A stretch of DNA of 64,000 bases, from positions 1 through 64,000 of the IMG/VR virus record IMGVR_UViG_3300031994_000044, one strand, 5' to 3'. Positions 8,792 to 29,214 of the stretch are shown one piece after another (position 1 is the first letter of the stretch; the number at the start of each line of letters is the position of its first letter). Position numbers and translations under genes: made by a program. Under the pieces are notes generated by a model. It was not told the origin of the DNA and ran no database searches. It worked only from the letters and a program-made list of their open reading frames with translations. The DNA is from a virus (Duplodnaviria; Caudoviricetes).

Positions 8792-8906
8792 TTATAATTA
8801 TAAATAGGTTATTATACTTATACAGAAAAATTTCTTAATAACCAAATCTTAGTGCCATCATGTATATAATTTCCATAAATTTTACAAATCCCTAATAGTT
8901 TACTGC

Positions 8907-12034: not shown

Positions 12035-13597
12035 TTAATCATTAAAAAACGCAAGTCTTACTGCATTACTATAAGCCTCTTTGTAGTTTCTTATGTAATC
12101 TTGGGCATCATCATTGTTCCAATAGTCACATTTTTGCATTGCTGATGATTCGCAAGCCAGAAATGCTGCAATACTATATCTATCTTCTTCTGCAAGATTT
12201 TTAAATATCTTTTCATAGAAAGCATGGTCTTGATTGATAAGGACATAGGTTTTTCCGTTCCTTTGTTCAATATCGTACATAAATCCAAACGGACCATCAC
12301 TGATAAATTCAAATCCACCAATCCATTCACCAGTTCTTTTCTTTGTTGGATTAGGATTGTTTTGTGGTTTTGGGTTTGGATTTTTTTGTTTTGGGTTATT
12401 ACACTTTTCGTTCTTACTCTTTTGCTTCATTGTGCCAGCAAGCAAAGTGTTTTTGTTAAGTCTGTCAGCTGTTTGCTCAAGTGACTTTTTCATTTCTTCT
12501 GTCACTTTTTCTTCTTTAGTTTCTTTATGCTGTTTATTGTCTGTTTGTTTGGCCAAAGGTCTAACAATATTTGAAAGCATATCGTAAAAGCCTTGGTCCA
12601 TAGTTGATTTGTCTTTTTCTGTAACCATTTTTGCAAATGTAGTTCCAAAAAATCTGTCAGCGTTTCCATCCATAAATAATTCAAAACGGAAACCGTTTGT
12701 CCAACAACTGCTTTTATAACACATTCCTAAATCAAGACCTTTTCCAACAAGACGATTTTGCCTATAAACATAAATACCAGCCAATTCATTTGACCTACCA
12801 AAATAATCATCAAATGTCGCACTTTGTACATTTTTTGGAATGTACCATGCTTTCCATTCCATTCTGCTTCCGCCATATTCAAAAGCACCGTAGTCCATAA
12901 GTTCAACACCAAGTCCAGATTTGTTGCCAATAGTGTCAAAGAATGTGAGTTTCTTTCCGTTGACATTAAAATTGCAAGTGTTAGACTCAATGTATTTATT
13001 AAACAAAATTCTCATTTGTCTTATCAATGTACCTTCAAAGCTATGATAATCTTTACACGAAATTCTGTCAAGATTTGAAATAATAACTATTGTACCGTGA
13101 TTTGACTTTGTGTTTTCAAAAAAGAAAGAATATTCTTCAGTGTTTTCCGCATAAGACTTAATTCTAACATTAAGTTCACCTTCATCTGAAATATCATCCA
13201 AATCAAGATTTGCAACAAAAAGTTCACCTTCTTCAACTTTTGAATACACAGAAAGATGTGTACCAATTGAAATTGATGCTGTTTTAAGGCCAGCGCCATA
13301 GCATCCAAGATTATAATCCTTGCTTTTTCCTGTTTCAGAGCCAAGAGACATGGCCATCATAAGAGTTTCTTCATCCATTCCACACCCATCATCACAAATC
13401 ATAATTTTACCAACTGTTTTCTTGTCATCTGCTTTGATGAGTTTAATGTAAATGTTCTCAGATTCAACATCTGGCTCAAGAGAATTGTCAACAATGTCGG
13501 CAATTGCTGTGTAATTAGTGTAATTTAATTGTCTAAGAGCATCTTTAATAAAGTTTGCTCTAACTTTAAAAGGAAAATTTTTCTCCATGTTAATCAC
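12035..13597 (-). CDS. GHKL (HATPase_c_3 / MORC-like) ATPase
   Basis: AIADIVDNS, DDGCGM, LGCYGAGLKTAS, HGTIVIISNL motifs; GIYVYRQNRLV S5-like domain. Confidence 0.85.
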   Translation of the reverse strand: MINMEKNFPFKVRANFIKDALRQLNYTNYTAIADIVDNSLEPDVESENIYIKLIKADDKKTVGKIMICDDGCGMDEETLMMAMSLGSETGKSKDYNLGCYGAGLKTASISIGTHLSVYSKVEEGELFVANLDLDDISDEGELNVRIKSYAENTEEYSFFFENTKSNHGTIVIISNLDRISCKDYHSFEGTLIRQMRILFNKYIESNTCNFNVNGKKLTFFDTIGNKSGLGVELMDYGAFEYGGSRMEWKAWYIPKNVQSATFDDYFGRSNELAGIYVYRQNRLVGKGLDLGMCYKSSCWTNGFRFELFMDGNADRFFGTTFAKMVTEKDKSTMDQGFYDMLSNIVRPLAKQTDNKQHKETKEEKVTEEMKKSLEQTADRLNKNTLLAGTMKQKSKNEKCNNPKQKNPNPKPQNNPNPTKKRTGEWIGGFEFISDGPFGFMYDIEQRNGKTYVLINQDHAFYEKIFKNLAEEDRYSIAAFLACESSAMQKCDYWNNDDAQDYIRNYKEAYSNAVRLAFFND

Positions 13598-13736: not shown

Positions 13737-13894
13737 GTGTCATCATGTATATAATTTCCTAATTTTTTATAAAAAATCCCTAAAGGGATTAGTTATCATT
13801 ACCTTTATAAGAAAAATATTTGTACACAACAAAAATTGTGCCAAACTTTTAATTAATATACAATTTATTAAGGGAACTATATACTTGATGGCAC
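13737..13894 (-). mobile_element. 158-bp internally deleted copy of the CRISPR cassette with a solitary degenerate repeat
   Basis: 13737-13791 resembles 8852-8906; 13792-13820 matches repeat 25/29; 13835-13894 identical to 11861-11920. Confidence 0.85.
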
Positions 13895-18183: not shown

Positions 18184-19317
18184 TTATTTACAATAAATTT
18201 TTCTTTCAAGCAATTCACCTACTTCAGAGTCGTACACAACATAATATTGGCAAGGTTCCTCACAGGTAAAACCATTTGTCATGGCAAATGTATTATAACC
18301 GATTATACTACCATTAACAACGGCATTTGATATTGAGGTGCATGAATGGAAGTGGCCAAGGAAAATACGGTCCTGATTGAATGTATTATGCCATTTCAAG
18401 GCCAAACGGTTAAGTGCGGGATAAATACCACAAATAGCGCCTGTACCAGTACTCTTTACTTGGAATCCATGACAGAATATAAAGCGTCTGTCGTCATCGG
18501 TATCAACAATAGCCAATTCGCTATCAGGAATATTAAATTCTATAGGTAAATTGGTCAATTTGCATTGTTGCTCGATGTTCTTATACATCATCCACTCATA
18601 ACTCATCTTATAGCCGTTTGAATGCTGTATCTTCTTTGTTGTACGAGAGTGGTTTCCTACAATACCAATGAACAATATCTGCTTAAGTTTGGTTTGCTCA
18701 CACAAATAAGATAAGCCACTATAGATTAGATTTTGTGCCAAAAGAGTTGCCTCTGAAGGACTCAATTGATTTGTTTCTTGAAGTTCCTCATGGATAAAAC
18801 CTGATATGGTATCGCCAAGACTTGCAAAAATCAGATTTTCAACACCATCGGTATTCAAACAATTGGCCAAATTAACAAAGTAATTCTCAATACGCTGCTT
18901 TGCAATATCAATGTTATATTCATTCTTCCCAAGAACTGAAGTCAATGTAACTGTTTCTTCAATATGAGCATCAGAAAACAATGCAATGGCATATTTTTTA
19001 CCGCTAGTCTTCTTTTTTATCTTGAATTCATATTTTTCAAATGGCAATTCCTTAACATTCTTGAAATTTTCATATTCCTTATAAAGAGAATCGTTTATTT
19101 CTTGCTTTTGAGGCTCTTCACTTGAATTAGGTATTGGGTTCTTAAAGGTATAGGTAATACCATTATGTTTGTAAAACCCATTTGTTTTCAATGATTCTGC
19201 AATTGTTTTACGCCTTACAGGTACAACCTTATTAAGTTTACGAATACTTGCATACTCAGTTCCATCACTGCCAATAATAGGTGACGGTACACCATTTCTA
19301 ATTTCAAAATTTGACAT
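18184..19317 (-). CDS. calcineurin-like metallophosphoesterase
   Basis: SDAH, LGDT, VGNHSR, CHG, LGHFH motifs. Confidence 0.85.
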   Translation of the reverse strand: MSNFEIRNGVPSPIIGSDGTEYASIRKLNKVVPVRRKTIAESLKTNGFYKHNGITYTFKNPIPNSSEEPQKQEINDSLYKEYENFKNVKELPFEKYEFKIKKKTSGKKYAIALFSDAHIEETVTLTSVLGKNEYNIDIAKQRIENYFVNLANCLNTDGVENLIFASLGDTISGFIHEELQETNQLSPSEATLLAQNLIYSGLSYLCEQTKLKQILFIGIVGNHSRTTKKIQHSNGYKMSYEWMMYKNIEQQCKLTNLPIEFNIPDSELAIVDTDDDRRFIFCHGFQVKSTGTGAICGIYPALNRLALKWHNTFNQDRIFLGHFHSCTSISNAVVNGSIIGYNTFAMTNGFTCEEPCQYYVVYDSEVGELLERKIYCK

Positions 19318-19415
19318 CTATTAAATTATTTTTTAAAAGTTATTTTTCAATTAATATACAAATACTTTTTATAAAAATCAACATTTACAACTATTTATAG
19401 TAAAATATTTGAGAA

Positions 19416-20063
19416 ATGAACAAAAAAGTAATTAGAATTAACGAAAATCACATAAGAAATCTTGTGAAAGAAGCATTAAGAAAACTCGTCAAAGAAGATA
19501 TTGACGGTTATGATGACGAAAATGAAATAGACCCCGATGATTGGCAATCAGAAGAACCATCAGATTTAGAAGTAAATGATATACTAATGACATTTAAAAG
19601 AGAATCTGAACAATTGGGTTTGAATTTTAGGGACCTTGGAGAAAAAGAATTTGCTGTTACTTGTAAAATAGGCGATAATGGCAAAGCAACCTGTGATATC
19701 AAGCAATTCTTGGAAATGGCTGCAATGTATGTTAATAGAGGTGTATTAAAAATAATTGGCCATGGAATATCCAAAGCAGGTACATGGTATTATAAATACA
19801 GAATTATTAAGGGTCAAATAGTCAGCGAAAGCAAAAAGAAGAGAAAAATAAATGAGGCTGAAGATTATGGATGGATTGTCGAAACAGATGAAGCACAATT
19901 GGCTTATCAATATTTTTGTGAAGAGATGGGTATAGAAGCCGCAAACGAAGCAATAATTAGGGCAATGAGTGATAAAACTTTATCTGAAATAATGGTTTAT
20001 CTTTTAAGAATGTATGATATGGATGGTTGGGAAGAGTATAAAGAGGAACATAGTCAATATTAA
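19416..20063 (+). CDS. hypothetical (probable head-internal) protein
   Basis: N-terminal IRINENHIRNLVKE motif; ACTATTTAT upstream. Confidence 0.75.
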   Translation: MNKKVIRINENHIRNLVKEALRKLVKEDIDGYDDENEIDPDDWQSEEPSDLEVNDILMTFKRESEQLGLNFRDLGEKEFAVTCKIGDNGKATCDIKQFLEMAAMYVNRGVLKIIGHGISKAGTWYYKYRIIKGQIVSESKKKRKINEAEDYGWIVETDEAQLAYQYFCEEMGIEAANEAIIRAMSDKTLSEIMVYLLRMYDMDGWEEYKEEHSQY

Positions 20064-20380
20064 TTAAAAACCAAATACAACAAAATAAAAAAGCCGGCAG
20101 TTTTTGTCGGCTTTTGTGTTTATAACACCTGTGAAATCTGAAAAAAGAAATAAATGATACACATATGGGTTTCACTAACACAGCCCATACACCTTTGCTA
20201 CACTCCCACAAATGTTAGTATTTGCAGTAGCCATTTTCCCGCTGGCCACAAATCATGGTTGTACATTCCATGAGTCACCTCTCATTTATCTCTGTTAATA
20301 CACAGTATATAACCTTCTGAGTTTACTTATCTGTGTCTATCAGCAAGTTCTAGAATATCAAACTGACAAGTTTCTCTGTG

Positions 20381-20471
20381 CGGAGGCAACAGGACTCGAA
20401 CCTGTACGCCGCTTAACGCGACTACTCAGAGTTTAGCAAACTCCTGCCTTACCAATTAGGCTTATGCCTCC
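20381..20471 (-). tRNA. tRNA-Ser(GCT)
   Basis: Cloverleaf, GGAGT-TT GCT AA-ACTCT, long variable arm. Confidence 0.92.
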
Positions 20472-20746
20472 AAAATGCAAGTAGATTTACGAAATAAGGC
20501 TGAGAAACCACACATTAAAGGTGGATACCCGCTATTAGGCACTTGCGCTGTTTTACTCACTTGTTGCTTATCCTCTTACAGCTCTTCACAGAATCGGCTG
20601 CTCTAACACCGACTGGCTTACACCAACTGACACGTTTCATCAAGCGTGGATACTTCTATGCCTCCTGCAACATGACACCATTACCATGGATATCTGTGCC
20701 ATTTACCTTGATTACTCAATGGTCTATACTTGCTATTATTTTAATC

Positions 20747-20823
20747 TGGGTGTCTGCTCAGATTCGAACTGAGGCCTCAACCGCCACAAGGTTGTGTGCT
20801 AAACCACTGACACTACAGACACC
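20747..20823 (-). tRNA. tRNA-His(GTG)
   Basis: CAACC-TT GTG GC-GGTTG, G-1, encoded CCA. Confidence 0.92.
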
Positions 20824-20839
20824 ATAAAATGGATTTCCT

Positions 20840-20924
20840 TGATTGGTATGGGATTCGAACCCTGGTACTATTCCAACCACCTCATTGTGTCGAGGCCCAC
20901 ACTCCCTGTGTGGAGCACCCAATC
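20840..20924 (-). ncRNA. atypical tRNA-like RNA
   Basis: GATTGG/CCAATC terminal helix, 6-bp CCACAC/GTGTGG arm, GGG-TTCGAAT-CCC T-loop; no canonical 7-nt anticodon loop. Confidence 0.5.
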
Positions 20925-21117
20925 GCTGGCATAAGGTCTTTTTCCTTAACATTTCTAAAGCCTTTCGATAATCCATGAATCTACTTGAAATTCGCTAGTT
21001 CAAGGAGTAATATTACCTCTCCCTTCACCCATTTATTTTAACAGTTTAGGGCTTGTACTGCTACCGTTCACGCTATCTGGTTCTACGCCTGTCTTTATAC
21101 TCGTCAGTATTGAGTTG

Positions 21118-21199
21118 TCGGAATGGTGGGATTCGAACCCACACGCCTTTCGGCACAACGTTCTTAGCGTTGCGAGTCTGCCAGTTCCTCCACATTCCG
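21118..21199 (-). tRNA. tRNA-Leu(AAG)
   Basis: CAACG-CT AAG AA-CGTTG, Leu-type variable arm TGCCGAAAGGCGT. Confidence 0.9.
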
Positions 21200-21208
21200 T
21201 AAAAAAAA

Positions 21209-21276
21209 CGGAAAACGGGTTTCAGTGGTACAAATTAACAGTTTGTTACTAAAAATAATTTGCTGTATGTTTTCCT
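21209..21276 (-). ncRNA. ACAGCAA-motif RNA with Asn-like anticodon hairpin
   Basis: GGAAAAC/GTTTTCC closing helix, ATACAGCAA, ACAAA-CT GTT AA-TTTGT, no T arm. Confidence 0.6.
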
Positions 21277-21280
21277 ATTG

Positions 21281-21377
21281 TCGGAACTGTAGGAATCGAA
21301 CCTACCCGAAGTTATTTGTCTAGAATTATTACCTTCACCTACACCATCATAGGCATGTCTCCATCCATCAAATTCCG
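21281..21377 (-). ncRNA. atypical tRNA-like RNA
   Basis: CGGAATT/AGTTCCG acceptor, perfect T arm, 6-nt anticodon-position loop, long variable arm. Confidence 0.55.
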
Positions 21378-21392
21378 ATTTTTTATGATTTG

Positions 21393-21518
21393 CTCCGTGG
21401 GAAAGATTCGAACTTTCGGCTAATGGGTTTACTTTGGTAAATTATATTGCTGTTAATTTTTTTGCCAAAAAATATTTTTTCTACACTCCCATTGCTCTAC
21501 CTCTGAGCTACACACGGA
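21393..21518 (-). ncRNA. tRNA body with about 60-nt ACAGCAA insert replacing the anticodon loop
   Basis: Canonical D arm GCTC/GAGC, ATGGG/CCCAT stem and T arm. Confidence 0.7.
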
Positions 21519-21657
21519 TTACAATTTTCTTCCATAGTCAATGGCTTATGACCGCATTATAGAAAATTAAAAAGACTTTCCTTCAGTTACGCTGAAGCAT
21601 CTGTTTGATTTATTCAGGGACAAATGACGTTACGTTGAGGCGCGACCTCTTAAAATG

Positions 21658-21733
21658 TTGGCCCGACAGGATTTGAACCTGTAAATCTCCTGAGTCAAAG
21701 TCAGGCGTGTTAACCAGGTTACACCACGGGCCA
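21658..21733 (-). tRNA. tRNA-Gln(TTG)
   Basis: CCTGA-CT TTG AC-TCAGG. Confidence 0.92.
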
Positions 21734-21796
21734 TTAAAAATATGTATCATATAATGCATAATTAAAAATATGTATCATATAGTACATATTTAAAAG

Positions 21797-21871
21797 TGGA
21801 CCCAATCAGATTCGAACTGATAAAATGCCGCCGTGCAAGGGCGGTCCTGTACCAATTGAAGGCATAGGCCC
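21797..21871 (-). tRNA. tRNA-Ala(TGC)
   Basis: CCGCC-CT TGC AC-GGCGG, G3:U70. Confidence 0.9.
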
Positions 21872-21963
21872 TTTAAAATGGAGGGGTTTAAAATGAACTT
21901 AATTTGGATGTTCGGAAACTATTCTTGACACATTTGGTACCCTCCCAAGAATAATTAATAATG

Positions 21964-22038
21964 TCGGTTAGGGTGGACTCGAACCACCGACCTCAAACTT
22001 ATCAGGTTTGCCATCTAAACCAACTGATATACTAACCG
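21964..22038 (-). tRNA. tRNA-Ile(GAT)
   Basis: CAAAC-CT GAT AA-GTTTG. Confidence 0.92.
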
Positions 22039-22045
22039 TTGAATG

Positions 22046-22208
22046 TACCCGGTAGGGGATTCGAACCCCTGATTTCAAGGATGGCTTCCTTGCAATGTAT
22101 CGAACATTCTTCATACTCACCATGATTAAAGCAAGGAAAAACTTTTTTCACAGAGAAAAGTAAAACTGTATAAAACCTTGCGTCCTAGGCCAGCTAGACG
22201 AACCGGGC
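22046..22208 (-). tRNA. tRNA-Glu(TTC) with 88-nt intron (22084-22171)
   Basis: Removing insert restores CAAGG-TT TTC AT-CCTTG. Confidence 0.8.
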
Positions 22209-22210
22209 AA

Positions 22211-22660
22211 AAAGCAGCGATTTGGTTCGCTGTCAACCTGCTAAATGCGCTGCCTTAGGCTGCTGCATAAGCAAAAGCATAATTTTCGTTGCCAGTTATT
22301 TTATGGCATCTCGGATGTCTACTTTCATTGTACTCATTAGCAATCAATTCCAAGATGGCCCATATTATTTTTTTTGTCGGATGCCAGGGAGTTGAACCCC
22401 AATTTTAAACCCGAATCAAAATTTTCAAATTACTTGATATTGTACCATGAATCATAAGAACCGTATAACTAGTATGGTTGGTACTCAACATGGCGCACCC
22501 GTTATTAAAACCGTGCTTTCCACGGATTAGACTAAGTTCGCCTTCTTTATACTTCAGAGATATACGTCTCAAGTGCGCCAACTTAGTAAAACCAACACTT
22601 CGTGGACCATAAGGGACTCGAACCCTTGTCTTACTCAACTTTCCTTTGATTATCAACAAC
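22211..22660 (-). ncRNA. ssrA: circularly permuted (two-piece) tmRNA
   Basis: Acceptor piece (T arm plus ATGGTCC-A, about 22660-22603) precedes coding piece (GGGCCAT at 22361; tag GNENYAFAYAAA* 22293-22255); G3:U70. Confidence 0.88.
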
Positions 22661-22670
22661 AAACCGATTG

Positions 22671-22743
22671 TGGGGTGTTATGGAATCGAACCATAGTGAC
22701 AGGTCTGTCGAACCTGCATCCTAAACCGCTAAATGAACTCCCC
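22671..22743 (-). tRNA. tRNA-Val(GAC)-like, atypical (C33)
   Basis: CAGGT-TC GAC AG-ACCTG, A73, one acceptor mismatch. Confidence 0.6.
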
Positions 22744-22873
22744 ATGTAAGAAATTTACATTTCACTATCGTGCCTCCACCATGAGACGCTTGGCGACTTT
22801 ATGTGGCCCGCACTAACTTTTCGTACTTGTTTAAGGTACGTGTGTCCTTCTTTCCTTATATTTTTTAGATTAC

Positions 22874-23002
22874 AGGAATCTATTTATTTTCCATTTCACT
22901 ATGCAGCCATCGGTTCCCCTAAAGCCGCAGTTGGACTCGAACCAACAATCTTTGTTTTGCTTACAAATGTGTTTACCTATTGTAACTTGCTGTTAAATTC
23001 CT
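22874..23002 (-). ncRNA. ACAGCAA-motif RNA with permuted-tRNA (YrlA-like) topology
   Basis: AGGAATTTA/TAGATTCCT closing helix; T arm, loop-closed 7-bp TGCGGCT/GGCTGCA acceptor-like stem, D-like segment. Confidence 0.65.
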
Positions 23003-23012
23003 TTTAATCTAG

Positions 23013-23086
23013 CGGGCCTGACGGGATTCGAACCCGCACCACACGCCGTGACAGGGCGGCATTGTAAACCATTCAACCACAGGCCC
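23013..23086 (-). tRNA. tRNA-Asp(GTC)
   Basis: CCGCC-CT GTC AC-GGCGT. Confidence 0.92.
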
Positions 23087-23279
23087 AATAAAGAAAGGTT
23101 TATGGCATCTTCTTAACTATGCCAACATCTGTTTTAGAGCTCGCAACCTTTCAAACAAAGCTTCCTCGGTACTTCACCACTCACCTCGGTTTAGGTGTAG
23201 TCCTGTCGCTCTACAAGTGCGCTAAATCTTTAATGAATTTAGAAACATGTTCTGACGGTTAAGCGTCATTGTTTTTCTC

Positions 23280-23368
23280 AGAAATCATTTACTGCACCAT
23301 TGCAATCAGCCCATAACGGCTAATATTAGAATCGAACTAATCAAGTTGACATTTGCTGTTAGATTTCT
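23280..23368 (-). ncRNA. ACAGCAA-motif RNA with permuted-tRNA (YrlA-like) topology
   Basis: AGAAATC/GATTTCT closing helix; ATTAG-TTCGATT-CTAAT; ATTAGCC/GGCTGAT; TGCA-ATGG-TGCA. Confidence 0.65.
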
Positions 23369-23377
23369 TAAGTTTAG

Positions 23378-23538
23378 CGGGAGAGGTGGGGTTCGAACCC
23401 ACGACCCACAGATTAGTTCTTGTAGTAAAAGTCGAATTTACTGACCTAGGATGACCGTCAATACAAGAATCAATTTGTTTTCAGAAGTTATTTCTCCTGT
23501 ATACAGTCTGTTGCGCTAACCAGCTACGCTACTCTCCC
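23378..23538 (-). tRNA. tRNA-Asn(GTT) with 87-nt intron (23416-23502)
   Basis: Removing insert restores ACAGA-CT GTT AA-TCTGT. Confidence 0.85.
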
Positions 23539-23546
23539 TTAAAAAA

Positions 23547-23632
23547 CAGGAAACGATATTTATGGAATCGAACCATTTCAATTTTATTTTCAGTAAAATC
23601 TTTAACCTTTTAAAATTTGCTGTATGTTTCCT
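23547..23632 (-). ncRNA. ACAGCAA-motif RNA with Phe-like anticodon arm and T arm
   Basis: AGGAAAC/GTTTCCT; TTTTA-CT GAA AA-TAAAA; ATGG-TTCGATT-CCAT. Confidence 0.6.
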
Positions 23633-23762
23633 TTATTTTTAATTCTTTTATAAATATACAAAAAATAATTTTCTTAAAAAATCAACGGTTCACAATAGAA
23701 CTTCTCACGGTAAAATCCATGGCTTCATTAGGCAAAGCTTCGTTGATTAAGATTTTTTTCAG

Positions 23763-23844
23763 TACCCCAGGTGGGATTCGAACCCACAATGGCTATGCCA
23801 CCACAGCCTAAATGTGGCCCCTATACCATTTCGGGTACTGAGGC
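23763..23844 (-). tRNA. tRNA-Leu(TAG)
   Basis: CCACA-TT TAG GC-TGTGG, long variable arm. Confidence 0.9.
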
Positions 23845-23850
23845 ATATTG

Positions 23851-23921
23851 AGCAGAATATCGGTGTCGAACCGATACCTTGACCTTGGGAAGGTCATATA
23901 CTGCCGCTATACTAATTCTGC
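23851..23921 (-). tRNA. tRNA-Gly(CCC)
   Basis: TGACC-TT CCC AA-GGTCA, U73. Confidence 0.88.
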
Positions 23922-23925
23922 ATTG

Positions 23926-24086
23926 TGGGAAAGGGTGGACTCGAACCACCAGTCTCAAAAGAGAACGGATTGCCAATGTGGTAAATTACGAATTTACGAT
24001 ACTTCATTATTCACATTGGATGGTTTTTACATGTTTACCTTCATGTATTACAGTCCGCGCGGCTACCAATTACCGGTTACTTTCCC
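23926..24086 (-). tRNA. tRNA-Tyr(GTA) with 77-nt intron (23972-24048)
   Basis: Removing insert restores GCGGA-CT GTA AA-TCCGT. Confidence 0.85.
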
Positions 24087-24099
24087 ATTAAAAATCATG

Positions 24100-24171
24100 A
24101 GCCCCCTACCTGAATTGAACAGGTATTTTCGGGTTACAAAGCCGATGTAATAACCATTATACTAAGGAGGC
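24100..24171 (-). tRNA. tRNA-Thr(TGT)
   Basis: TCGGC-TT TGT AA-CCCGA. Confidence 0.85.
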
Positions 24172-24182
24172 AACAAAATAAA

Positions 24183-24243
24183 CGGAAATCCATCAAAAAA
24201 AACATACCATAATTTTTATAAAGATATTGCTGTTGAATTTCCT
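24183..24243 (-). ncRNA. minimal ACAGCAA-motif RNA
   Basis: GGAAATTCA/TGGATTTCC closing helix plus ACAGCAA. Confidence 0.55.
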
Positions 24244-24244
24244 G

Positions 24245-24326
24245 TGGCCAAGGTGGGACTCGAACCCACACGCCTTTCGGCACATGATTTTGAGTCATGG
24301 GTGTCTACCAATTCCACCACTTGGCC
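24245..24326 (-). tRNA. tRNA-Leu(CAA)
   Basis: CATGA-CT CAA AA-TCATG. Confidence 0.92.
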
Positions 24327-24339
24327 ATTGTTAAATTAG

Positions 24340-24459
24340 TCGGGACGTTTGGATTCGAACCAAAACCACGGAAACCCAAATTCATTGCTAAAATATTGCT
24401 GTAAAATTCCGTGTCTGAAATCATAAATGCTACGTGTGCTACCGTTACACCACATCCCA
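24340..24459 (-). ncRNA. tRNA-Pro(TGG)-like RNA with 49-nt ACAGCAA insert in anticodon stem
   Basis: Removing 24384-24432 gives CGGAA-TT TGG GT-TTCCG. Confidence 0.65.
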
Positions 24460-24585
24460 TTAGAAGAGTTTCACTTATGTCCTCTCAGCTGCGTGGGCCC
24501 ACACCCTGAGACGGTTGCTGCACTAAGAAGGAAACACCCAGACGCTCTTCCGAGCGAAAGGAAAACTACTCTACAGCTTTTCACG

Positions 24586-24657
24586 TTGTCTCACCGCGAC
24601 TCGAACACGGACCAAGAGAACCAAAATCTCTTGTGCTAACCATTACACCATGAGACA
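24586..24657 (-). tRNA. tRNA-Gln(TTG), second copy
   Basis: AGAGA-TT TTG GT-TCTCT. Confidence 0.9.
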
Positions 24658-24666
24658 ATTTTAAAG

Positions 24667-24795
24667 TGGTGTATTAGGGAATCGAACCCATTATTAAAGC
24701 CAGTTACTTTGAATTCAATATTAGCTCTTCTCAAATTCTTTTCACGTCACCTCATACTACTTGAATCGGCCGAATTTCATATGAGTTAATACACC
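24667..24795 (-). ncRNA. enlarged tRNA-like RNA
   Basis: GGTGTATTA/TAATACACC terminal helix and GGG-TTCGATT-CCC T-loop, long non-canonical interior. Confidence 0.5.
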
Positions 24796-24799
24796 ATGT

Positions 24800-24930
24800 A
24801 GCTGGGAATTGATGATTCGAACCATCATCTCGGAATTGGAATTTCATTGCTAAAATATTGCTGTTAAATTTCATTGTTCCGACTGAAATTGTTTTGTTTG
24901 CTACGTGTTCTACCCTTAAACTATTCCAGC
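24800..24930 (-). ncRNA. tRNA-Gly(TCC)-like RNA with 58-nt ACAGCAA insert in anticodon stem
   Basis: Removing 24846-24903 gives CGGAA-AT TCC AA-TTCCG. Confidence 0.6.
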
Positions 24931-24945
24931 ATTGAAGAATATATG

Positions 24946-25033
24946 CGGAGGGGGTGGGATTCGAACCCACGGGAGTAGTTAGCTCACACAAGATTTCAAG
25001 TCTAGGCCGTTATGACCACTTCGGCACCCCTCC
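24946..25033 (-). tRNA. tRNA-Ser(TGA)
   Basis: CTAGA-CT TGA AA-TCTTG, long variable arm, G73. Confidence 0.9.
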
Positions 25034-25187
25034 AATAGGCTATATGTTTCACAACATACAACCTTATGTTGTTGTTTTATTTTTCAGATTTCACAAGATG
25101 TCAAAGAACATTTGCATTAACAAATATACAAAGTTTTTTGTTAAAAACAAATTTTTTTTTATTTTTTTTTTCGGCAAGTTATCTCTT

Positions 25188-25203
25188 ATCAAAAACCGTG
25201 CCA
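25188..25203 (-). promoter_or_regulatory. sigma54-like promoter in RNA cluster
   Basis: TGGCACGGTTTTTGAT; further copies 26153-26168 and 28031-28046; TATATTTG (Bacteroidota -7 box) at about 25121-25128. Confidence 0.65.
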
Positions 25204-25211
25204 AACTTTTT

Positions 25212-25285
25212 TGGTGGCGATAGGAAGAGTTGAACTTCCGAATTGGCCTTATGAGAGCCACGTTTTACCGCTAGACTATATCGCC
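25212..25285 (-). tRNA. tRNA-Met/Ile2(CAT)
   Basis: TGGCT-CT CAT AA-GGCCA, encoded CCA. Confidence 0.88.
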
Positions 25286-25295
25286 TTAGCGTTTG

Positions 25296-25369
25296 AGCGG
25301 GTTAAGGGACTCGAACCCTCAAACCTTCTGCATGGCAAGCAGATGCTCTACCAATTGAGCTAAACCCGC
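25296..25369 (-). tRNA. tRNA-Gly(GCC)
   Basis: TCTGC-TT GCC AT-GCAGA. Confidence 0.92.
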
Positions 25370-25373
25370 ATAT

Positions 25374-25544
25374 TTACCATTCCCATCCATCAAATCTTTT
25401 TAATTGTGGCCTAATGTCTTGGTCTATTGGTATTCTTCTAAGTTTTCTATGCCTTTCTTTTTTAACCTTTTTGCGTGAATGATGCCTATTATATGCTTCA
25501 CTATTCATCCATGGTTCAGGTTCATATCCGTATGAAAGTCCCAT
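25374..25544 (-). CDS. small basic protein within tRNA cluster (not in ORF track)
   Basis: 56 aa MGLSYGYEPEPW...RKKVKKERHRKLRR...FDGWEW. Confidence 0.6.
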   Translation of the reverse strand: MGLSYGYEPEPWMNSEAYNRHHSRKKVKKERHRKLRRIPIDQDIRPQLKRFDGWEW

Positions 25545-25572
25545 TTTATTTTATATTTTAAATTTTTAAATG

Positions 25573-26107
25573 TGATGCCGCTGGGAGTCGAACCCAGAAC
25601 CTACAGCTTAGCCTACCACTCTATATTACTATAGCCAAACAAACCATTTGGATGAAAATGTTAAAATGCCTCCTTATTCATCCACTAAGGTACATTTATT
25701 ATTTGTTTGTTGTGGTCTGGACTTGTCTCTTTACCTTATCAGAATTCTTGCAAGTAATGCTTAATCACAAAGTGTTGGATTTCATACCAACAACCTCTTA
25801 CTCCCGCGTAAGTGCTCTATAGAATATTGTAAGCTAACCTTGTTTTAGCACAATTCTGACTTAGGTATCCCCCGTTCAGCCTCTACACGATTATAAGAAG
25901 TGACCATGCTTTATCACTTATTAGATGCCATTTCTGGTTCTTATTTTCGCTCGGCATAGTCCTGGACATTATTGTTTAGTCCACAGCTTTACGTCCTGTT
26001 ACACTAAGGATTTCCGCCGAATTTAGGGGATTCTACCATGGGATTTCTCGCCATAGCACTCCTATTTTTTGAAGGCTGTTGCTCTAATCCAATTGAGCTA
26101 CGGCACC
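25573..26107 (-). tRNA. tRNA-Arg(TCT) interrupted by a group I intron
   Basis: Exons ACAGC-CT T|CT AA-GCTGT. Confidence 0.88.
25612..26071 (-). ncRNA. group I intron (460 nt, no ORF)
   Basis: Inserted after U, ends in G; P-like AAATTCGGCGGAAA, R-like GTAGAGGCTGAACG, S-like AAGAGACAAGTCC. Confidence 0.85.
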
Positions 26108-26176
26108 ATTCTTTCAAAGAACATAATAAATATACAATTAAAATTTCAAATTATCAAATATTATGCCAAACTTTTT

Positions 26177-26980
26177 TTAAAATCTAAATCCTTGTTTAAT
26201 TATTTTATCTTTTTGGATTTTGGCATATGTTCTTGCAATTTTTCGGCCAAAATTATTAATGTTCTTAAGTATTAGATTTTTAGTTAAATTATATTTTTTT
26301 AATTCTTTTTCAAAATTTTCATTATCACTAAGTTCATTATAAATATCAACAATTTCATTATATATTTTGTAACATGGTGTTTTTTTCAAGTTATCATAGG
26401 TGAATACTTCAGGTAATGCCATTACATAAGCGTACATTCCGTTAATATAGCCATCCTGTTCATTCTTTGTACATCCATAGACTAATTTCGCTACTTTTGA
26501 AATAAAATCATTATTATCACTCATATTTGTTATAACTTTTGAATAAACAGAACTGTCAGGAAAATTTCCGCCTATTAAATATTGTTGGTATATGTGTTCA
26601 AACTCATGCTGTATTGTATCCATTACTTCGGTTTTAATTATAGTTCCTGAAACACATGGAATGAATAAGCCTATAACACAATATCTTTTATCAAAACTAC
26701 TCCATCCTTCTGCTTCAACGCCAAATTTATCGTAATATTCTTTTGTATAATAGTTAATTACCTTATATGATATTCCCACATTTATACCAAGTAAATCATA
26801 TTTCAAATATCCATTATATGATGAAAAGAATTTTTCTTTTTCAAAAATTTCCATATTTTCAGAAATATCTTTTTTAAGTATATCAAAAAATTCATTTGTT
26901 TTTTTGGCAATTTCATCAGATATACCAAGTTCTTCCTGTAATATTTTTTTAAATTGAGATTCTGTAATTAAAATTTTCAT
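26177..26980 (-). CDS. hypothetical protein with HExxH motif
   Basis: IQHEFEHIYQ; N-terminal ILITESQFKKIL motif. Confidence 0.75.
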   Translation of the reverse strand: MKILITESQFKKILQEELGISDEIAKKTNEFFDILKKDISENMEIFEKEKFFSSYNGYLKYDLLGINVGISYKVINYYTKEYYDKFGVEAEGWSSFDKRYCVIGLFIPCVSGTIIKTEVMDTIQHEFEHIYQQYLIGGNFPDSSVYSKVITNMSDNNDFISKVAKLVYGCTKNEQDGYINGMYAYVMALPEVFTYDNLKKTPCYKIYNEIVDIYNELSDNENFEKELKKYNLTKNLILKNINNFGRKIARTYAKIQKDKIIKQGFRF

Positions 26981-26999
26981 ATTTTTTAATTATAATTTG

Positions 27000-27071
27000 T
27001 ATGCCAAGAAAGATTTGAACTCTCACTATAACATCCGTAGTGTTATGTGCTATCCGTTACACCATTGGCAC
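27000..27071 (-). tRNA. tRNA-Arg(ACG)
   Basis: TAACA-CT ACG GA-TGTTA. Confidence 0.9.
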
Positions 27072-27080
27072 ATTAATTTG

Positions 27081-27153
27081 TACGCCCGCTGGGACTTGAA
27101 CCCAGGACTCCCACATTAAAAGTGTGGTACTCTACCAACTGAGTTACGAGCGC
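27081..27153 (-). tRNA. tRNA-Lys(TTT)
   Basis: CCACA-CT TTT AA-TGTGG. Confidence 0.93.
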
Positions 27154-27163
27154 ATATTTATTG

Positions 27164-27236
27164 TGGGGAGTGATGGTGCTGACCCATCTTCTTTGGTTTT
27201 TCAGACCAACGCAACAACCGTGTCTGCTAACTCCCC
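27164..27236 (-). tRNA. tRNA-Phe(GAA), atypical T-loop
   Basis: TTGGT-CT GAA AA-ACCAA; T-loop GTCAGCA. Confidence 0.75.
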
Positions 27237-27253
27237 TTAATTGTTATATCAAG

Positions 27254-27327
27254 TCGAGGTGGCGGGACTCGAACCCACGACTTCAGCATCCCAAATGCCG
27301 TGTGCTAGCCAACTGCACCACACCTCG
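27254..27327 (-). tRNA. tRNA-Pro(TGG)
   Basis: CGGCA-TT TGG GA-TGCTG. Confidence 0.92.
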
Positions 27328-27351
27328 TATTATCAAAGAACTATTTATCAG

Positions 27352-27423
27352 AGTCGGCGGAGGGATTTGAACCCACATCGTACTGTTTTGCAGACAGTTA
27401 CCTAACCATTCAGCCACACCGAC
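27352..27423 (-). tRNA. tRNA-Cys(GCA)
   Basis: ACTGT-CT GCA AA-ACAGT, U73. Confidence 0.9.
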
Positions 27424-27430
27424 ATTTTCA

Positions 27431-27506
27431 TCAGTTGGACAGGATTCGAACCTGTGTTTCTTAGCGTCCCGCTTATAGTGTACTAAACCGCTATACGACC
27501 TAACCG
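27431..27506 (-). ncRNA. tRNA-like RNA / pseudo-tRNA, undetermined anticodon
   Basis: Good D and T arms, irregular anticodon arm. Confidence 0.5.
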
Positions 27507-27517
27507 ATGTAATTTTG

Positions 27518-27599
27518 CAAGCAGAACAAGACTCGAACTTGTATCTCACGAATTGGACTCCGTGTGTTTTTCCAAGTGCCTCTTTTAAACTATCTACTC
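27518..27599 (-). ncRNA. tRNA-like RNA / pseudo-tRNA (Trp-like)
   Basis: Perfect T arm, enlarged D loop, non-7-nt loop containing CCA. Confidence 0.5.
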
Positions 27600-27627
27600 T
27601 GTACCGAAGAGCACTCTTCGATATTTG

Positions 27628-27698
27628 CAGGCAGTGAAGGATTCGAACCCTCAACAACGGTTTTGGAGACCGCTATGTTACCATTACACCAACTACCT
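27628..27698 (-). tRNA. tRNA-Trp(CCA)
   Basis: GCGGT-CT CCA AA-ACCGT, G73. Confidence 0.92.
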
Positions 27699-27746
27699 AT
27701 TCTATTTTCAAAGAACCTAATTAAATATACAATTTATTTTTCAATT

Positions 27747-27998
27747 TTACAACTTATTTTTTAATTTTTTTTTATATTCTTCTCTATCTTTATTGGATAG
27801 GAGGGTTTTATTTCTTCCAATGTGCCATTTACCGCATTCAGAACATTTATAAGCCACCATTTTATGGATTGTATTTTCCTTTGTATTTAAAAATCGTGCC
27901 ATTTTCAGGGCTTCTTGTTCTGTGTCAAAAGTTTTCTTTTCTTCAAGTATTCCGTTTGGGCCAATTTTATAATGTGACCTATAATCTCTTTTTGTCAT
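27747..27998 (-). CDS. small zinc-ribbon protein
   Basis: YKCSECGKWHIG. Confidence 0.75.
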   Translation of the reverse strand: MTKRDYRSHYKIGPNGILEEKKTFDTEQEALKMARFLNTKENTIHKMVAYKCSECGKWHIGRNKTLLSNKDREEYKKKLKNKL

Positions 27999-28057
27999 GT
28001 ATTTAAATTTTAATTTCTATTTTCACACTTATCAAAAATTGTGCCAAACTTTTCAAA

Positions 28058-28303
28058 TTATGATAATTCAATTAAATTTTCTTTTTCCATAGCTCTTCTA
28101 ATCCACCTCATTAATATAATGGCCTTATTGTAATAGGGACTAAATGTAGCCGTTTCGCCGCAATCAACTTTATCAGACAAATCAATTTCTAATAGGTATC
28201 TGTTACCTGTGCTTGATGTGATTATATACTCAGCTATACCGCCACTTCTTATGCAGTCAAGTTTTGCGCTACCTGTTACTATTTGTTTTAATGTGTCTTT
28301 CAT
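28058..28303 (-). CDS. hypothetical protein
   Basis: 81 aa, KAIILMRWIRRA. Confidence 0.7.
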   Translation of the reverse strand: MKDTLKQIVTGSAKLDCIRSGGIAEYIITSSTGNRYLLEIDLSDKVDCGETATFSPYYNKAIILMRWIRRAMEKENLIELS

Positions 28304-28666
28304 TATTTTTTGGATTATTTCTTATTATTATTGGGCAATAAAAAAACCTCTGATTTAGTTTTTAGATTGGGAAACTTTCAGAGGTTGGGAATATATTGTG
28401 GTTAGAAACCTATGTGCTTAAATATTTTCAACTGCTCTTCATCTGTTTCCCGTTTGTTTTAAAACACCATTTGCTTTTTGGTGACCATGCAAAAAATGAG
28501 CATTTATAACCTTGGGGGTTATAAGTGTTTGATTTAAATCGTTTAATATTTTGGTTCATTGTTTGCATAATAATTTTTTAAATTGTCGATATTTTACACA
28601 TATAAATATAATATACTTTTAAAAAAGTTAAAAAATTGTTATTTTTTTTTAAAAAAATATTTTTTT

Positions 28667-28903
28667 TTATTGAACTAATTGTATGAATTTTAATGTTTCG
28701 TCTTTTGTATATATAAGATAATCGTCTGAATTATACCAACAGTTATGATGGCAATTATAAAAGGCAATTTCATAATTACCGTTATGTTGGACCAAACATG
28801 GAATTGTTTCCTGGCAATTGGAATTATTTTCCATATGTGGCAAAGTATCAGGAGCATCACACCATAATTGGGTGATGCTCGGATTTTCATTTTTTATCAT
28901 CAT
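28667..28903 (-). CDS. hypothetical protein
   Basis: 78 aa, coupled to upstream stop. Confidence 0.6.
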   Translation of the reverse strand: MMIKNENPSITQLWCDAPDTLPHMENNSNCQETIPCLVQHNGNYEIAFYNCHHNCWYNSDDYLIYTKDETLKFIQLVQ

Positions 28904-29214
28904 TCAAAGTAATCCTCGATTAGTTTATTGATAATGTCAAGTTCAACTCTCAAGTCATTCAATTCAAGTTCATAATTAATTCTATTTCTGGTCCAATCCA
29001 CCATATTAATGTTTTCACCAACGACAAGAGCGTCTGTTGAACGGACAGCCATATCTTCCATGTCAGTAATCTTGGTTTCTATTTCACGGATACGCTTTTC
29101 TGTTTCAAGTTTTTCAGTGTTAAAAGCATCTTGTGCATCTTTTGTGCGCGTTTGGGCTCTTTTTTCGATAAGTTCAGAGCCATTTGTTGTCAACAATTTT
29201 TCAAATTTACTCAT
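28900..29214 (-). CDS. coiled-coil hypothetical protein
   Basis: 104 aa. Confidence 0.75.
   Translation of the reverse strand: MSKFEKLLTTNGSELIEKRAQTRTKDAQDAFNTEKLETEKRIREIETKITDMEDMAVRSTDALVVGENINMVDWTRNRINYELELNDLRVELDIINKLIEDYFE

What the first reader, a model, noticed from the sequence alone, without database searches (positions are those of the whole stretch)
24340..24930. Two tRNA-like genes with homologous inserts at position 28/29 of the anticodon stem
Seen: both read D-arm-A-CG[TAGCA…ATTTCAG…CGGAA…ACAGCAATATTTTAGCAAT]GAA-loop-TTCCG. Removing the bracket (49 and 58 nt) gives perfect CGGAA/TTCCG stems with TGG (Pro) and TCC (Gly) anticodons. An internal CGGAA offers an alternative pairing with TTCCG. 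No other Gly(TCC) tRNA is in the window. Inference: a second non-canonical intron type or a conformational switch.
Basis: partly seen in the sequence, partly recalled or inferred. Interest (0 to 1): 0.72.

Follow-up and report, generated by a model that had tools for sequence, protein, structure and literature searches.

The report
Phage tRNAs carrying a docking arm
Two tRNA-shaped genes of a sheep-rumen phage carry a 49- and a 58-base side arm in the anticodon stem; the arm is probably not an intron but a kept copy of a widespread, uncatalogued RNA "handle" that in related phages sits beside a Ro60-like ring protein, which would make these RNAs tRNA/Y-RNA hybrids.

Summary
On the minus strand, 24340-24459 (Pro, UGG) and 24800-24930 (Gly, UCC) are tRNA-shaped genes with homologous 49- and 58-nt inserts between positions 28 and 29. 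Removing the insert gives a clean tRNA-Pro. The Gly body in this window is damaged, but its orthologue in two related phages is a perfect cloverleaf.

I found 19 distinct homologues (Pro, CAU/UAU and Gly groups) in rumen phage contigs. All carry the insert, and no insert-free allele was found. Their acceptor, D and T stems covary, while the insert is almost invariant.

The insert is a loop-capped copy of a "handle": a 7-bp helix, 2 nt, then ACAGCAA. This handle occurs five more times in open form and once more capped in this array, and about 60 times in other phages. There it frames anticodon-arm look-alikes or rearranged tRNA bodies that cannot be exons. In those phages the handles lie next to a DUF2828 protein whose model matches Ro60.

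RNA contigs show unspliced forms, one of them CCA-tailed. I found no splicing enzymes.

Best reading (about 0.55): a permanent docking arm on a tRNA mimic. Splicing and a conformational switch remain open. No Ro60-like gene was found in this phage lineage.

The scan has reported the same handle, including 28/29 grafts, on other DNA before.

The parts
24340..24459 (-). Pro(UGG)-type tRNA-shaped gene with side arm (120 nt)
   Evidence: Clean cloverleaf once 24384-24432 is ignored. Orthologues in G037, G038/G039 and several metagenome contigs.
24384..24432 (-). 49-nt insert of the Pro-type gene, between tRNA positions 28 and 29
   Evidence: Order: 10-nt linker, handle hairpin, 2 nt, ACAGCAA, 12-nt linker.
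24405..24422 (-). Capped handle hairpin of the Pro-type gene (6 pairs plus one mismatch, 4-nt loop), ending 2 nt before ACAGCAA (24396-24402)
   Evidence: Meets the family's 9-nt rule. The hairpin's 3' strand contains the internal CGGAA that can instead pair with 24369-24373.
24369..24383 (-). Anticodon-arm part of the Pro-type gene: 3 stem bases, a 7-nt loop with UGG, and the 5-nt 3' strand
   Evidence: Invariant stem in all 19 homologues.
24800..24930 (-). Gly(UCC)-type tRNA-shaped gene with side arm (131 nt). In this window the T arm and 3' acceptor strand are damaged.
   Evidence: Orthologue in G038/G039, 87% identical, is a perfect cloverleaf.
24846..24903 (-). 58-nt insert of the Gly-type gene, between positions 28 and 29
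   Evidence: Order: 13-nt linker, handle hairpin, 2 nt, ACAGCAA (24858-24864), 12-nt linker.
24867..24890 (-). Capped handle hairpin of the Gly-type gene: 7 Watson-Crick pairs and a 10-nt loop that holds the internal CGGAA
24831..24845 (-). Anticodon-arm part of the Gly-type gene (7-nt loop with UCC)
24667..24795 (-). Neighbouring 129-nt tRNA-like gene with an 8-bp acceptor stem. In RNA it is joined to the Gly-type gene and ends in CCA, with the final CA untemplated.
   Evidence: run X7, record 22; letters between the two sides of the joint; fold.
21393..21518 (-). Third tRNA body of the array with a capped handle (7 bp, 4-nt loop, 2 nt, ACAGCAA). Here it replaces the anticodon loop.
   Evidence: (Rfam tRNA, 38.8 bits over 124 nt).
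24184..24242 (-). Open-handle family member, stand-alone, 59 nt
23548..23632 (-). Open-handle member holding an anticodon-like hairpin and a T arm
23280..23368 (-). Open-handle member holding a rearranged tRNA body (T arm, capped acceptor, D arm)
22874..23002 (-). Open-handle member holding a rearranged tRNA-like body. Conserved in G037 and in metagenome contigs.
21210..21275 (-). Open-handle member holding an anticodon-like hairpin (GUU loop)

Best explanation
The two genes make tRNA-shaped RNAs in which the insert is kept. It folds as an extra arm that bulges from the 5' strand of the anticodon stem: a 7-bp hairpin, two free bases, the single-stranded word ACAGCAA, and a 12-nt linker that leads into an intact anticodon stem-loop. 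This arm is the loop-capped form of a 'handle' shared by dozens of small RNAs in phage tRNA arrays. In other members the same handle has open ends and holds anticodon-arm look-alikes or rearranged tRNA bodies. The order handle, ACAGCAA, linker, anticodon-like hairpin is the same throughout. The handle is most likely a protein docking site. In the related phages that carry handles it lies beside a DUF2828 protein whose model matches Ro60, so the RNA would act like a Y RNA with the topology reversed: a tRNA bait with a free, CCA-tailed acceptor end and a displayed anticodon loop, tied to a ring protein. Shown here: the anatomy, the family, the conservation, the gene neighbourhood in other phages, and the unspliced RNA. 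Inferred: binding to the protein, retention of the arm in the working RNA, and the purpose (RNA surveillance or repair, or a decoy in the phage-host contest over tRNAs).
For: (1) Both inserts obey the family rule. In 61 of 63 open-handle members the helix base lies exactly 9 nt before ACAGCAA. Pro, Gly and the third capped copy at 21393-21518 have 7 positions of hairpin plus 2 nt.
(2) The handle family is real and widespread. There are eight copies on the tRNA strand of this array, and about 60 members in 27 loci with four pair types at helix positions 4-7. Their payloads are anticodon-like hairpins or tRNA bodies with a capped acceptor, which cannot be spliced into tRNAs.
(3) All 19 distinct homologues of the two genes carry the insert at the same site. 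In them 7 of 7 acceptor pairs, 3 of 5 T pairs and 1 of 4 D pairs change on both sides. 96% of cells are paired, against 23-54% when partners are slid. The insert core is invariant.
(4) A scan of IMG/VR for the two insert-free junctions gave only 3 chance matches, none in a tRNA.
(5) Loops drift in ways a decoding tRNA would not allow. Position 33 is C, U or A in the CAU group, one Pro copy has an 8-nt loop, and one has UUG on a Pro body.
(6) The Gly copy of this window has lost its T arm and acceptor pairing but keeps the handle and anticodon arm intact.
(7) RNA contigs of three sheep metatranscriptomes contain the unspliced inserts. One 271-nt species ends in CCA with an untemplated CA.
(8) PF11443 (DUF2828) hits occur in 10 of 14 other handle-bearing records, and seven mapped genes lie about 0.2-8 kb from handle RNAs. 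There are no hits in 9 related records without multi-copy handles; the other 13 related records were screened for handles but not for PF11443.
(9) The AlphaFold model of the DUF2828 protein (pLDDT 80, pTM 0.81) has Ro60/TROVE structures as its 13 best PDB matches over about 550-600 columns, E 5e-8 to 2.5e-5.
Against: No DUF2828, TROVE or A1-profile match was found in this record (a fragment of an estimated 29%) or in its three closest relatives, one of them 82% complete. The proposed partner is therefore missing where it matters most and would have to sit in unsampled DNA, be too diverged to detect, or come from the host.

The anticodons UCC, CAU/UAU and UGG read GGA, AUA and CCA, which make up 26%, 41% and 42% of their codon families in this phage. 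That is the usual profile of working phage tRNAs.

The tRNA bodies are under clear purifying selection, and some keep discriminator bases typical of their type.

Removing the insert restores a perfect stem.

Nearest-neighbour energies do not favour the three-way-junction fold.

The hairpin itself shows only one-sided changes.

Contigs cannot show that a spliced form is absent.
Confidence: 0.55

Rival explanations
1. The inserts are a new kind of short protein-spliced tRNA intron. An unknown endonuclease, perhaps guided by the handle and its binding protein, cuts at both junctions. A ligase such as host RtcB then joins the halves, giving working tRNA-Pro(UGG), tRNA-Gly(UCC) and, in relatives, tRNA-Ile/Met(CAU/UAU).
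For: Removal rebuilds a perfect 5-bp stem and a canonical 7-nt loop. The tRNA bodies covary and are kept. The anticodons match heavily used A-ending codons, and no other Gly(UCC) tRNA exists in the record. Other tRNAs of the same array carry 77-88-nt inserts and a group I intron, so this phage tolerates interrupted tRNAs. RtcB is present in the Bacteroides control genome. Lak megaphages are reported to have 'enigmatic' tRNA introns (PMC6784885).
Against: There is no bulge-helix-bulge: both junctions lie in direct, not complementary, repeats. No EndA, RtcB or Rnl2 was found in the phage records. No insert-free allele was found, unlike the Lak case. The same module elsewhere is not flanked by exons. 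Loop position 33 and loop length drift. A normal tRNA-Pro(UGG) already exists at 27253-27327. No spliced joint was among the joints shown, while unspliced RNA is present.
Confidence: 0.2
2. The arm is a conformational switch. The 3' strand of the anticodon stem pairs either with the split 5' strand (anticodon displayed, handle hairpin formed) or with the internal CGGAA (anticodon arm dissolved). A protein or another ligand that binds the handle sets the state, switching the tRNA or bait on and off.
For: The internal CGGAA (UGGAA in some copies) is kept in all 19 homologues. In the Gly group it sits as a separate copy inside the hairpin loop. The minimum-energy folds use it. The two states differ by 1-5.5 kcal/mol in the Pro and CAU groups.
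Against: The region is too conserved to give covariation for either pairing. Energies of multi-branch loops are unreliable. In the Pro and CAU groups the internal word is part of the handle hairpin, so its conservation may simply reflect the handle.
Confidence: 0.15
3. The genes are decaying pseudogenes: tRNA genes hit by a mobile copy of the handle module and no longer in use.
For: The Gly copy of this window has a broken T arm and acceptor. Pro(UGG) is redundant with 27253-27327. One low-coverage metagenome contig carries a CAU/Pro hybrid, which shows recombination between copies.
Against: There are 19 distinct homologues in many samples, with compensatory changes in three stems and an invariant insert. 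They are transcribed. The site and cassette are the same in three paralogue groups.
Confidence: 0.05

Closest known systems
YrlA-type bacterial and phage Y RNAs bound by Ro60/Rsr (Chen et al. 2014, PMC4201824; Rfam YrlA)
   Same: Both are a small RNA that joins a tRNA look-alike to a protein-docking element made of a helix and a conserved single strand. Both are treated as tRNA by cell enzymes: M. smegmatis YrlA is cut by RNase P and receives CCA, and here a neighbouring tRNA-like RNA joined to the Gly-type gene carries an untemplated CA. The partner family found in related phages has a Ro60-like predicted fold.
   Different: No Rfam match. The docking word is ACAGCAA, not the GNCGAA-type motif. 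The protein is DUF2828, not Pfam TROVE. The topology is reversed: YrlA has its ends in the Ro-binding stem and a closed acceptor, whereas here the acceptor is open, the anticodon loop is kept, and the handle is a capped side arm. No Ro60-like gene was found in this phage lineage.
'Enigmatic' tRNA introns of Lak megaphages (Devoto et al. 2019, PMC6784885)
   Same: Both are short, highly conserved inserts in tRNA genes of large gut phages of Bacteroidota, with no known splicing route.
   Different: The Lak example is itself tRNA-shaped and has alleles with and without the insert. Here the insert is the handle module, it lies at 28/29 in the stem, and no insert-free allele was found.
Archaeal non-canonical tRNA introns with a bulge-helix-bulge motif
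   Same: Both can sit in the anticodon stem at non-canonical positions, and both are short.
   Different: There is no bulge-helix-bulge at the junctions, no EndA-type endonuclease, and the setting is a bacterial phage.
Group I introns in bacterial and phage tRNA genes
   Same: Both interrupt tRNA genes, and one such intron lies in this same array at about 25500-26270.
   Different: 49-58 nt is far too short for a group I core. The site is in the stem, not the loop, and there is no Rfam intron match at these coordinates.

Membership tests
Canonical tRNA (Rfam RF00005) | Cloverleaf with 7-bp acceptor, D arm and 5-bp T stem with a 7-nt T loop | tested here: met
   Met for the Pro-type gene and for 17 of 19 homologues, with compensatory changes. 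Not met for the Gly-type copy of this window, whose T stem and acceptor are broken.
Canonical tRNA (Rfam RF00005) | Uninterrupted 5-bp anticodon stem, 7-nt loop with U33, and a score above the family threshold | tested here: not met
   49 or 58 nt lie between positions 28 and 29. There is no Rfam tRNA match at E<=1 for either gene. Position 33 is C or A in several CAU-group homologues, and one Pro copy has an 8-nt loop.
Group I intron in tRNA | Conserved P1-P9 core of about 200 nt or more, inserted in the anticodon loop | tested here: not met
   Insert length is 49/58 nt and the site is in the stem. No intron family match was found at these coordinates.
Protein-spliced (bulge-helix-bulge) tRNA intron | Two 3-nt bulges around a 4-bp helix at the exon-intron junctions | tested here: not met
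   By inspection, the letters just inside both junctions are direct repeats of each other and cannot form the helix.
Protein-spliced (bulge-helix-bulge) tRNA intron | Splicing endonuclease (EndA family) and RNA ligase available | tested here: inconclusive
   PF01974 and PF09414 are absent from G000 and G037-G039. RtcB is absent from G000, G013 and G020 but present in the Bacteroides control. The records are fragments and the host is unknown.
YrlA-type Y RNA | Match to the Rfam model and the GNCGAA-type Rsr-binding motif near the 5' end | tested here: not met
   No Rfam match was found at E<=1 over 19000-29000. The motif as defined is absent; only a near-match with one extra G lies in the Gly hairpin loop.
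YrlA-type Y RNA | tRNA-like domain recognised by tRNA enzymes | tested here: inconclusive
   A full tRNA fold is present. The CCA tail was seen on the 271-nt RNA, whose 3' domain is the neighbouring tRNA-like gene, not the Gly-type gene itself.
YrlA-type Y RNA | Encoded beside a Ro60/Rsr (TROVE) gene | tested here: not met
   No TROVE or DUF2828 match was found in G000 or G037-G039.
ACAGCAA-handle RNAs (uncatalogued family, defined in this scan) | 7-9-bp helix whose base lies 9 nt before single-stranded ACAGCAA | tested here: met
   Pro has 6 pairs plus a mismatch, then 2 nt. Gly has 7 pairs, then 2 nt. Both are loop-capped. The rule holds in 61 of 63 open members.
ACAGCAA-handle RNAs (uncatalogued family, defined in this scan) | Handle followed by a linker and a tRNA-derived payload such as an anticodon-like hairpin | tested here: met
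   A 12-nt linker leads into the anticodon stem-loop, in the same order as in stand-alone members.
ACAGCAA-handle RNAs (uncatalogued family, defined in this scan) | Same genome encodes a DUF2828 (Ro60-like fold) protein near the handle RNAs | tested here: not met
   Met in 10 of 14 other handle-bearing records (fold). Not met in this record or its three closest relatives.

The most novel reading that the evidence does not exclude
These are genuine, chargeable tRNAs for GGA, AUA and CCA codons whose anticodon arm is gated by a built-in protein-docking arm. Binding of a Ro60-like ring protein, phage or host, either flips the arm between a hidden and a displayed anticodon or directs precise removal of the arm. 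Decoding of the phage's preferred codons would then be switched on by an RNA-protein particle. That would be a new layer of translational control and a new route of tRNA maturation in bacteria.
Probability: 0.15. Interest if true: 0.9.

Novelty: new variant of a known kind. Interest (0 to 1): 0.68.

Why it matters
Y RNAs with Ro60 are the only known particles that join a tRNA look-alike to an RNA-surveillance ring, and their role in bacteria and phages is still poorly understood. Here the same idea appears in a different form: a different docking word, a different protein family with the Ro60 fold, and complete tRNAs with a free acceptor end and a real anticodon loop that carry the docking site as a fifth arm. 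If the arm is kept, large gut and rumen phages make a class of tRNA baits that could tie a ring protein to synthetases, the ribosome or host anticodon nucleases. That bears on the current question of how phages and hosts fight over tRNA. If the arm is removed, this is a new kind of bacterial tRNA splicing. Either outcome can be tested with a northern blot or tRNA-seq and one pull-down. In practice, gene callers miss these genes entirely or report them as tRNAs with introns.

Tried and rejected
- An exact 19-mer of the insert in IMG/VR gave no other contig.
- The 267-aa ORF inside the array has no relatives in IMG/VR.
- GenBank phages matched only the tRNA-Gln between the two genes.
- ThyX-based relatives carry their tRNA arrays elsewhere, so the flanks were useless. 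Their whole records were still useful.
- The CRISPR repeat of the window is unrelated to the handle.
- I considered hammerhead, hatchet, pistol, twister and retron ncRNA readings of helix + ACAGCAA and dropped them. No Rfam family matched at E<=1, the hammerhead-like junction word lacks the catalytic G, and the handle copies have no reverse transcriptase gene beside them.
- A permuted-tRNA-gene reading of the rearranged members was dropped because several have the acceptor closed by a 4-6-nt loop.
- The anticodon of a stand-alone handle RNA does not systematically match the next tRNA.
- The 520-aa ORF at 12035-13597 is not a Ro60-like protein.
- Pfam and PHROGs gave nothing for most ORFs next to the array.
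- Paper searches for the handle and for DUF2828 found no description.
- Read laying listed no joint across either insert among the 15 joints shown; 50 more were not shown. Contigs cannot prove absence, so this counts neither for nor against splicing.
- A sequence profile of the DUF2828 proteins against PDB sequences gave only weak Ro60 hits, E 0.04-0.3. The fold search was needed to see the relationship.

Full report
Setting. The window is the first 64 kb of a 106-kb IMG/VR virus record (G000; CheckV estimates it as 29% of a genome). It has about 30% G+C, and its ThyX links it to crAss-like and larger gut phages. Near-identical DNA is held by sheep, goat and cattle gut runs. A minus-strand array at about 20380-27700 holds 22 ordinary tRNAs, several tRNAs with long inserts, a group I intron and many structured spacers.

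Observation. On the minus strand, 24340-24459 and 24800-24930 read as acceptor, D arm, A26, C27-G28, insert, three stem bases, a 7-nt loop and the 5-nt 3' strand of the anticodon stem, then the T arm and acceptor. The inserts are 49 nt (24384-24432) and 58 nt (24846-24903).
- They share an identical 22-mer found nowhere else in the record, plus two further blocks.
- With the insert cut out in silico, ARAGORN calls a clean tRNA-Pro(UGG).
- The Gly(UCC)-type gene is not called even then, because its T stem is out of register and its 3' acceptor strand has one extra base.
- Rfam's tRNA model sees neither intact gene at E<=1.
A normal tRNA-Pro(UGG) lies at 27253-27327.

The insert belongs to a family. 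ACAGCAA occurs eight times on the tRNA strand within 3.7 kb of this array. In five copies, the nine bases before it form the 5' strand of a 7-9-bp helix that closes 59-129 nt further on. I found the same design in the tRNA arrays of related phages G013 and G020 and, by pattern scan, in many other IMG/VR contigs.
- In all there are 63 candidates in 27 loci. A few of these, in coding DNA, are probably chance matches.
- In 61 of 63 the helix base lies exactly 9 nt before the word. Helix positions 4-7 each show four pair types.
- The base before the helix is always A and the base after it always G; both of these were selection criteria. The A three bases upstream, seen in 50 of 63, was not.
- What the helix encloses varies: hairpins with canonical-looking 7-nt anticodon loops, T arm plus acceptor plus D arm in rearranged order with the acceptor closed by a short loop, or most of a tRNA.
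- None of these can be exons. No Rfam family matches.

The two genes carry this handle in capped form. In the Gly-type gene, the seven bases that end 2 nt before ACAGCAA pair perfectly with seven bases 10 nt upstream. In the Pro-type gene the same register gives six pairs and a mismatch around a 4-nt loop. A third tRNA body at 21393-21518 has a 7-bp, 4-nt-loop version in place of its anticodon loop. Read this way, the RNA is a cloverleaf with a fifth arm that leaves the 5' strand of the anticodon stem between positions 28 and 29: linker, handle hairpin, 2 nt, ACAGCAA, a 12-nt linker, then the rest of the anticodon stem and its loop. The order handle, ACAGCAA, linker, anticodon hairpin is the same as in the stand-alone members. 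Only the place where the chain is open differs.

Homologues. Gapped pattern scans of IMG/VR and JGI metagenomes found 19 distinct homologues in rumen phage contigs.
- They fall into three paralogue groups: Pro(UGG), CAU/UAU and Gly(UCC). In G038/G039 the three stand in tandem.
- Every one has the insert at 28/29.
- The Gly orthologue of G038 is a perfect cloverleaf, so the defects in this window are a local decay.
- On the alignment (A4), the structure with the fifth arm has 96% of cells paired, against 23-54% when partners are slid. Changes occur on both sides in 7 of 7 acceptor pairs, 3 of 5 T pairs and 1 of 4 D pairs.
- The cassette from the D stem's 3' strand to the anticodon stem's 3' strand is nearly invariant. 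Neither the split anticodon stem nor the alternative pairing can therefore be tested by covariation. The hairpin shows only one-sided changes.
- The 7-nt loops drift. Position 33 is C, U or A in the CAU group, one Pro copy has eight loop bases, and one has UUG on a Pro body.
- A scan for the two insert-free junctions found three chance matches and no tRNA.

RNA. Contigs of three sheep metatranscriptomes lie on the array.
- Two cover the Gly-type gene with its insert.
- One, in run X7, is a circular unitig of window 24666-24934 plus two extra letters. Read as RNA, it starts 4 nt before the Gly-type gene, runs through it and the next tRNA-like gene (24667-24795), and ends in discriminator plus CCA, of which the CA is not in the DNA.
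- Whether the head-to-tail joint is a true circle or template switching, it marks a stable, unspliced, CCA-tailed RNA.
- The Pro-type insert is covered in two runs by a variant allele like that of G037/G038.
- No joint across either insert was among the 15 listed, and 50 were not shown. Contigs cannot prove absence.

Partner protein. Earlier notes of this scan pointed to a DUF2828 protein. I tested that lead here.
- PF11443 hits occur in 10 of 14 other handle-bearing records. The four without a hit are 20-64% fragments.
- No hits occur in nine related records that have tRNA arrays but no handles.
- A strict handle pattern gives 3-7 copies in six of those ten records, one in G035 and none in G013, whose handles were found separately; G028 and G033 were not in this scan. 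It gives at most one copy, probably chance, in the 22 related records without handles.
- For the seven records where both were mapped, the DUF2828 gene lies about 0.2-8 kb from handle RNAs.
- An AlphaFold model built from nine of these proteins (pLDDT 80, pTM 0.81) has Ro60/TROVE structures as its 13 best PDB matches over nearly full length. These include Ro60 of Thermus phage phiLo and Deinococcus Rsr.
- However, neither DUF2828, TROVE nor a profile of the phage proteins matches G000 or its three closest relatives, which all carry both open and capped handles. One of these relatives is 82% complete.
- TROVE and RtcB do ring in the Bacteroides control genome, so a host partner is conceivable.
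- No EndA-type endonuclease or Rnl2-type ligase was found in this lineage, and no RtcB in G000.

Folding. RNAfold's minimum-energy structures pair the 3' strand of the anticodon stem with the internal CGGAA instead of the split 5' strand. For the Pro and CAU groups that state is 1-5.5 kcal/mol better than the fifth-arm state. In the Gly group the internal word lies in the hairpin loop, so it could pair without opening the hairpin.

Verdict. The anatomy is confirmed. The best-supported reading is that the insert is a kept docking arm, which makes these RNAs tRNA/Y-RNA hybrids with reversed topology relative to YrlA (PMC4201824). They fail the membership tests for YrlA itself: no Rfam match, a different motif and no rsr neighbour. 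They also fail the tests for every known intron class. The main weaknesses are the missing partner gene in this lineage and the decoder-like choice of anticodons: GGA, AUA and CCA make up 26-42% of their codon families. Splicing by an unknown route remains a real rival, at about 0.2. Published work notes 'enigmatic' introns in Lak megaphage tRNAs (PMC6784885), but I found no description of this handle or of DUF2828 in RNA biology. The scan has reported the same handle, and grafts at 28/29, on other DNA. New here are the RNA evidence, the set of 19 homologues with covariation, the search for insert-free alleles, and the finding that this lineage lacks a detectable Ro60-like gene.

Noticed in passing
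window 20472-20737 (minus strand): In run X6 an RNA contig of depth 180 is a circular unitig of exactly this 266-nt spacer between tRNA-His and tRNA-Ser. Its 3' end coincides with the RNase P site of tRNA-Ser. It may be a stable, possibly circular, structured RNA.
   Followed up: no
window 24666-24934 (minus strand): A 271-nt RNA species joins the Gly-type gene and the next tRNA-like gene and ends in CCA with an untemplated CA. The head-to-tail joint in the contig may be a true circle or template switching.
   Followed up: partly
window 8901-9403, 9470-11764, 13789-13820: A CRISPR array of eight 36-nt repeats spaced 66 nt apart lies next to a 764-aa ORF with no Pfam or PHROG match, possibly a compact Cas12-like effector. 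A lone degenerate repeat lies 4.4 kb away, inside a duplicated 81-nt flank.
   Followed up: no
window 25500-26270: The group I intron region of a tRNA gene has RNA depth in the thousands in all three metatranscriptomes, with many length variants at 25894-25943. These probably come from related introns of other organisms.
   Followed up: no
window 23378-23538, about 22040-22210 and 23925-24090: Other tRNAs of the array carry 69-88-nt inserts in or next to the anticodon (ARAGORN with introns, and an Rfam tRNA hit of 52.5 bits over 161 nt). This is a different insert class from the handle.
   Followed up: no
window 22255-22657: There is a sub-threshold match to the permuted tmRNA family (37 bits, threshold 47).
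   Followed up: no
L221 1504-1893 (G038) and L222 (G039): Three handle-armed tRNAs (Gly, CAU, Pro) stand in tandem 3-13 nt apart. Because the cassettes are alike, the handle strand of one gene can also pair with the hairpin strand of the next. A low-coverage contig (L234) holds a CAU/Pro hybrid gene.
   Followed up: partly
window 18184-19317: A 377-aa ORF just outside the array matches a phage exonuclease family (phrog_284, E 1e-37).
   Followed up: no
handle family, many loci (for example L193, L089, L099): Open-handle RNAs often stand head to tail with only 4-6 nt between the end of one helix and the start of the next. The junction word is conserved, which suggests a common processing site.
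   Followed up: partly
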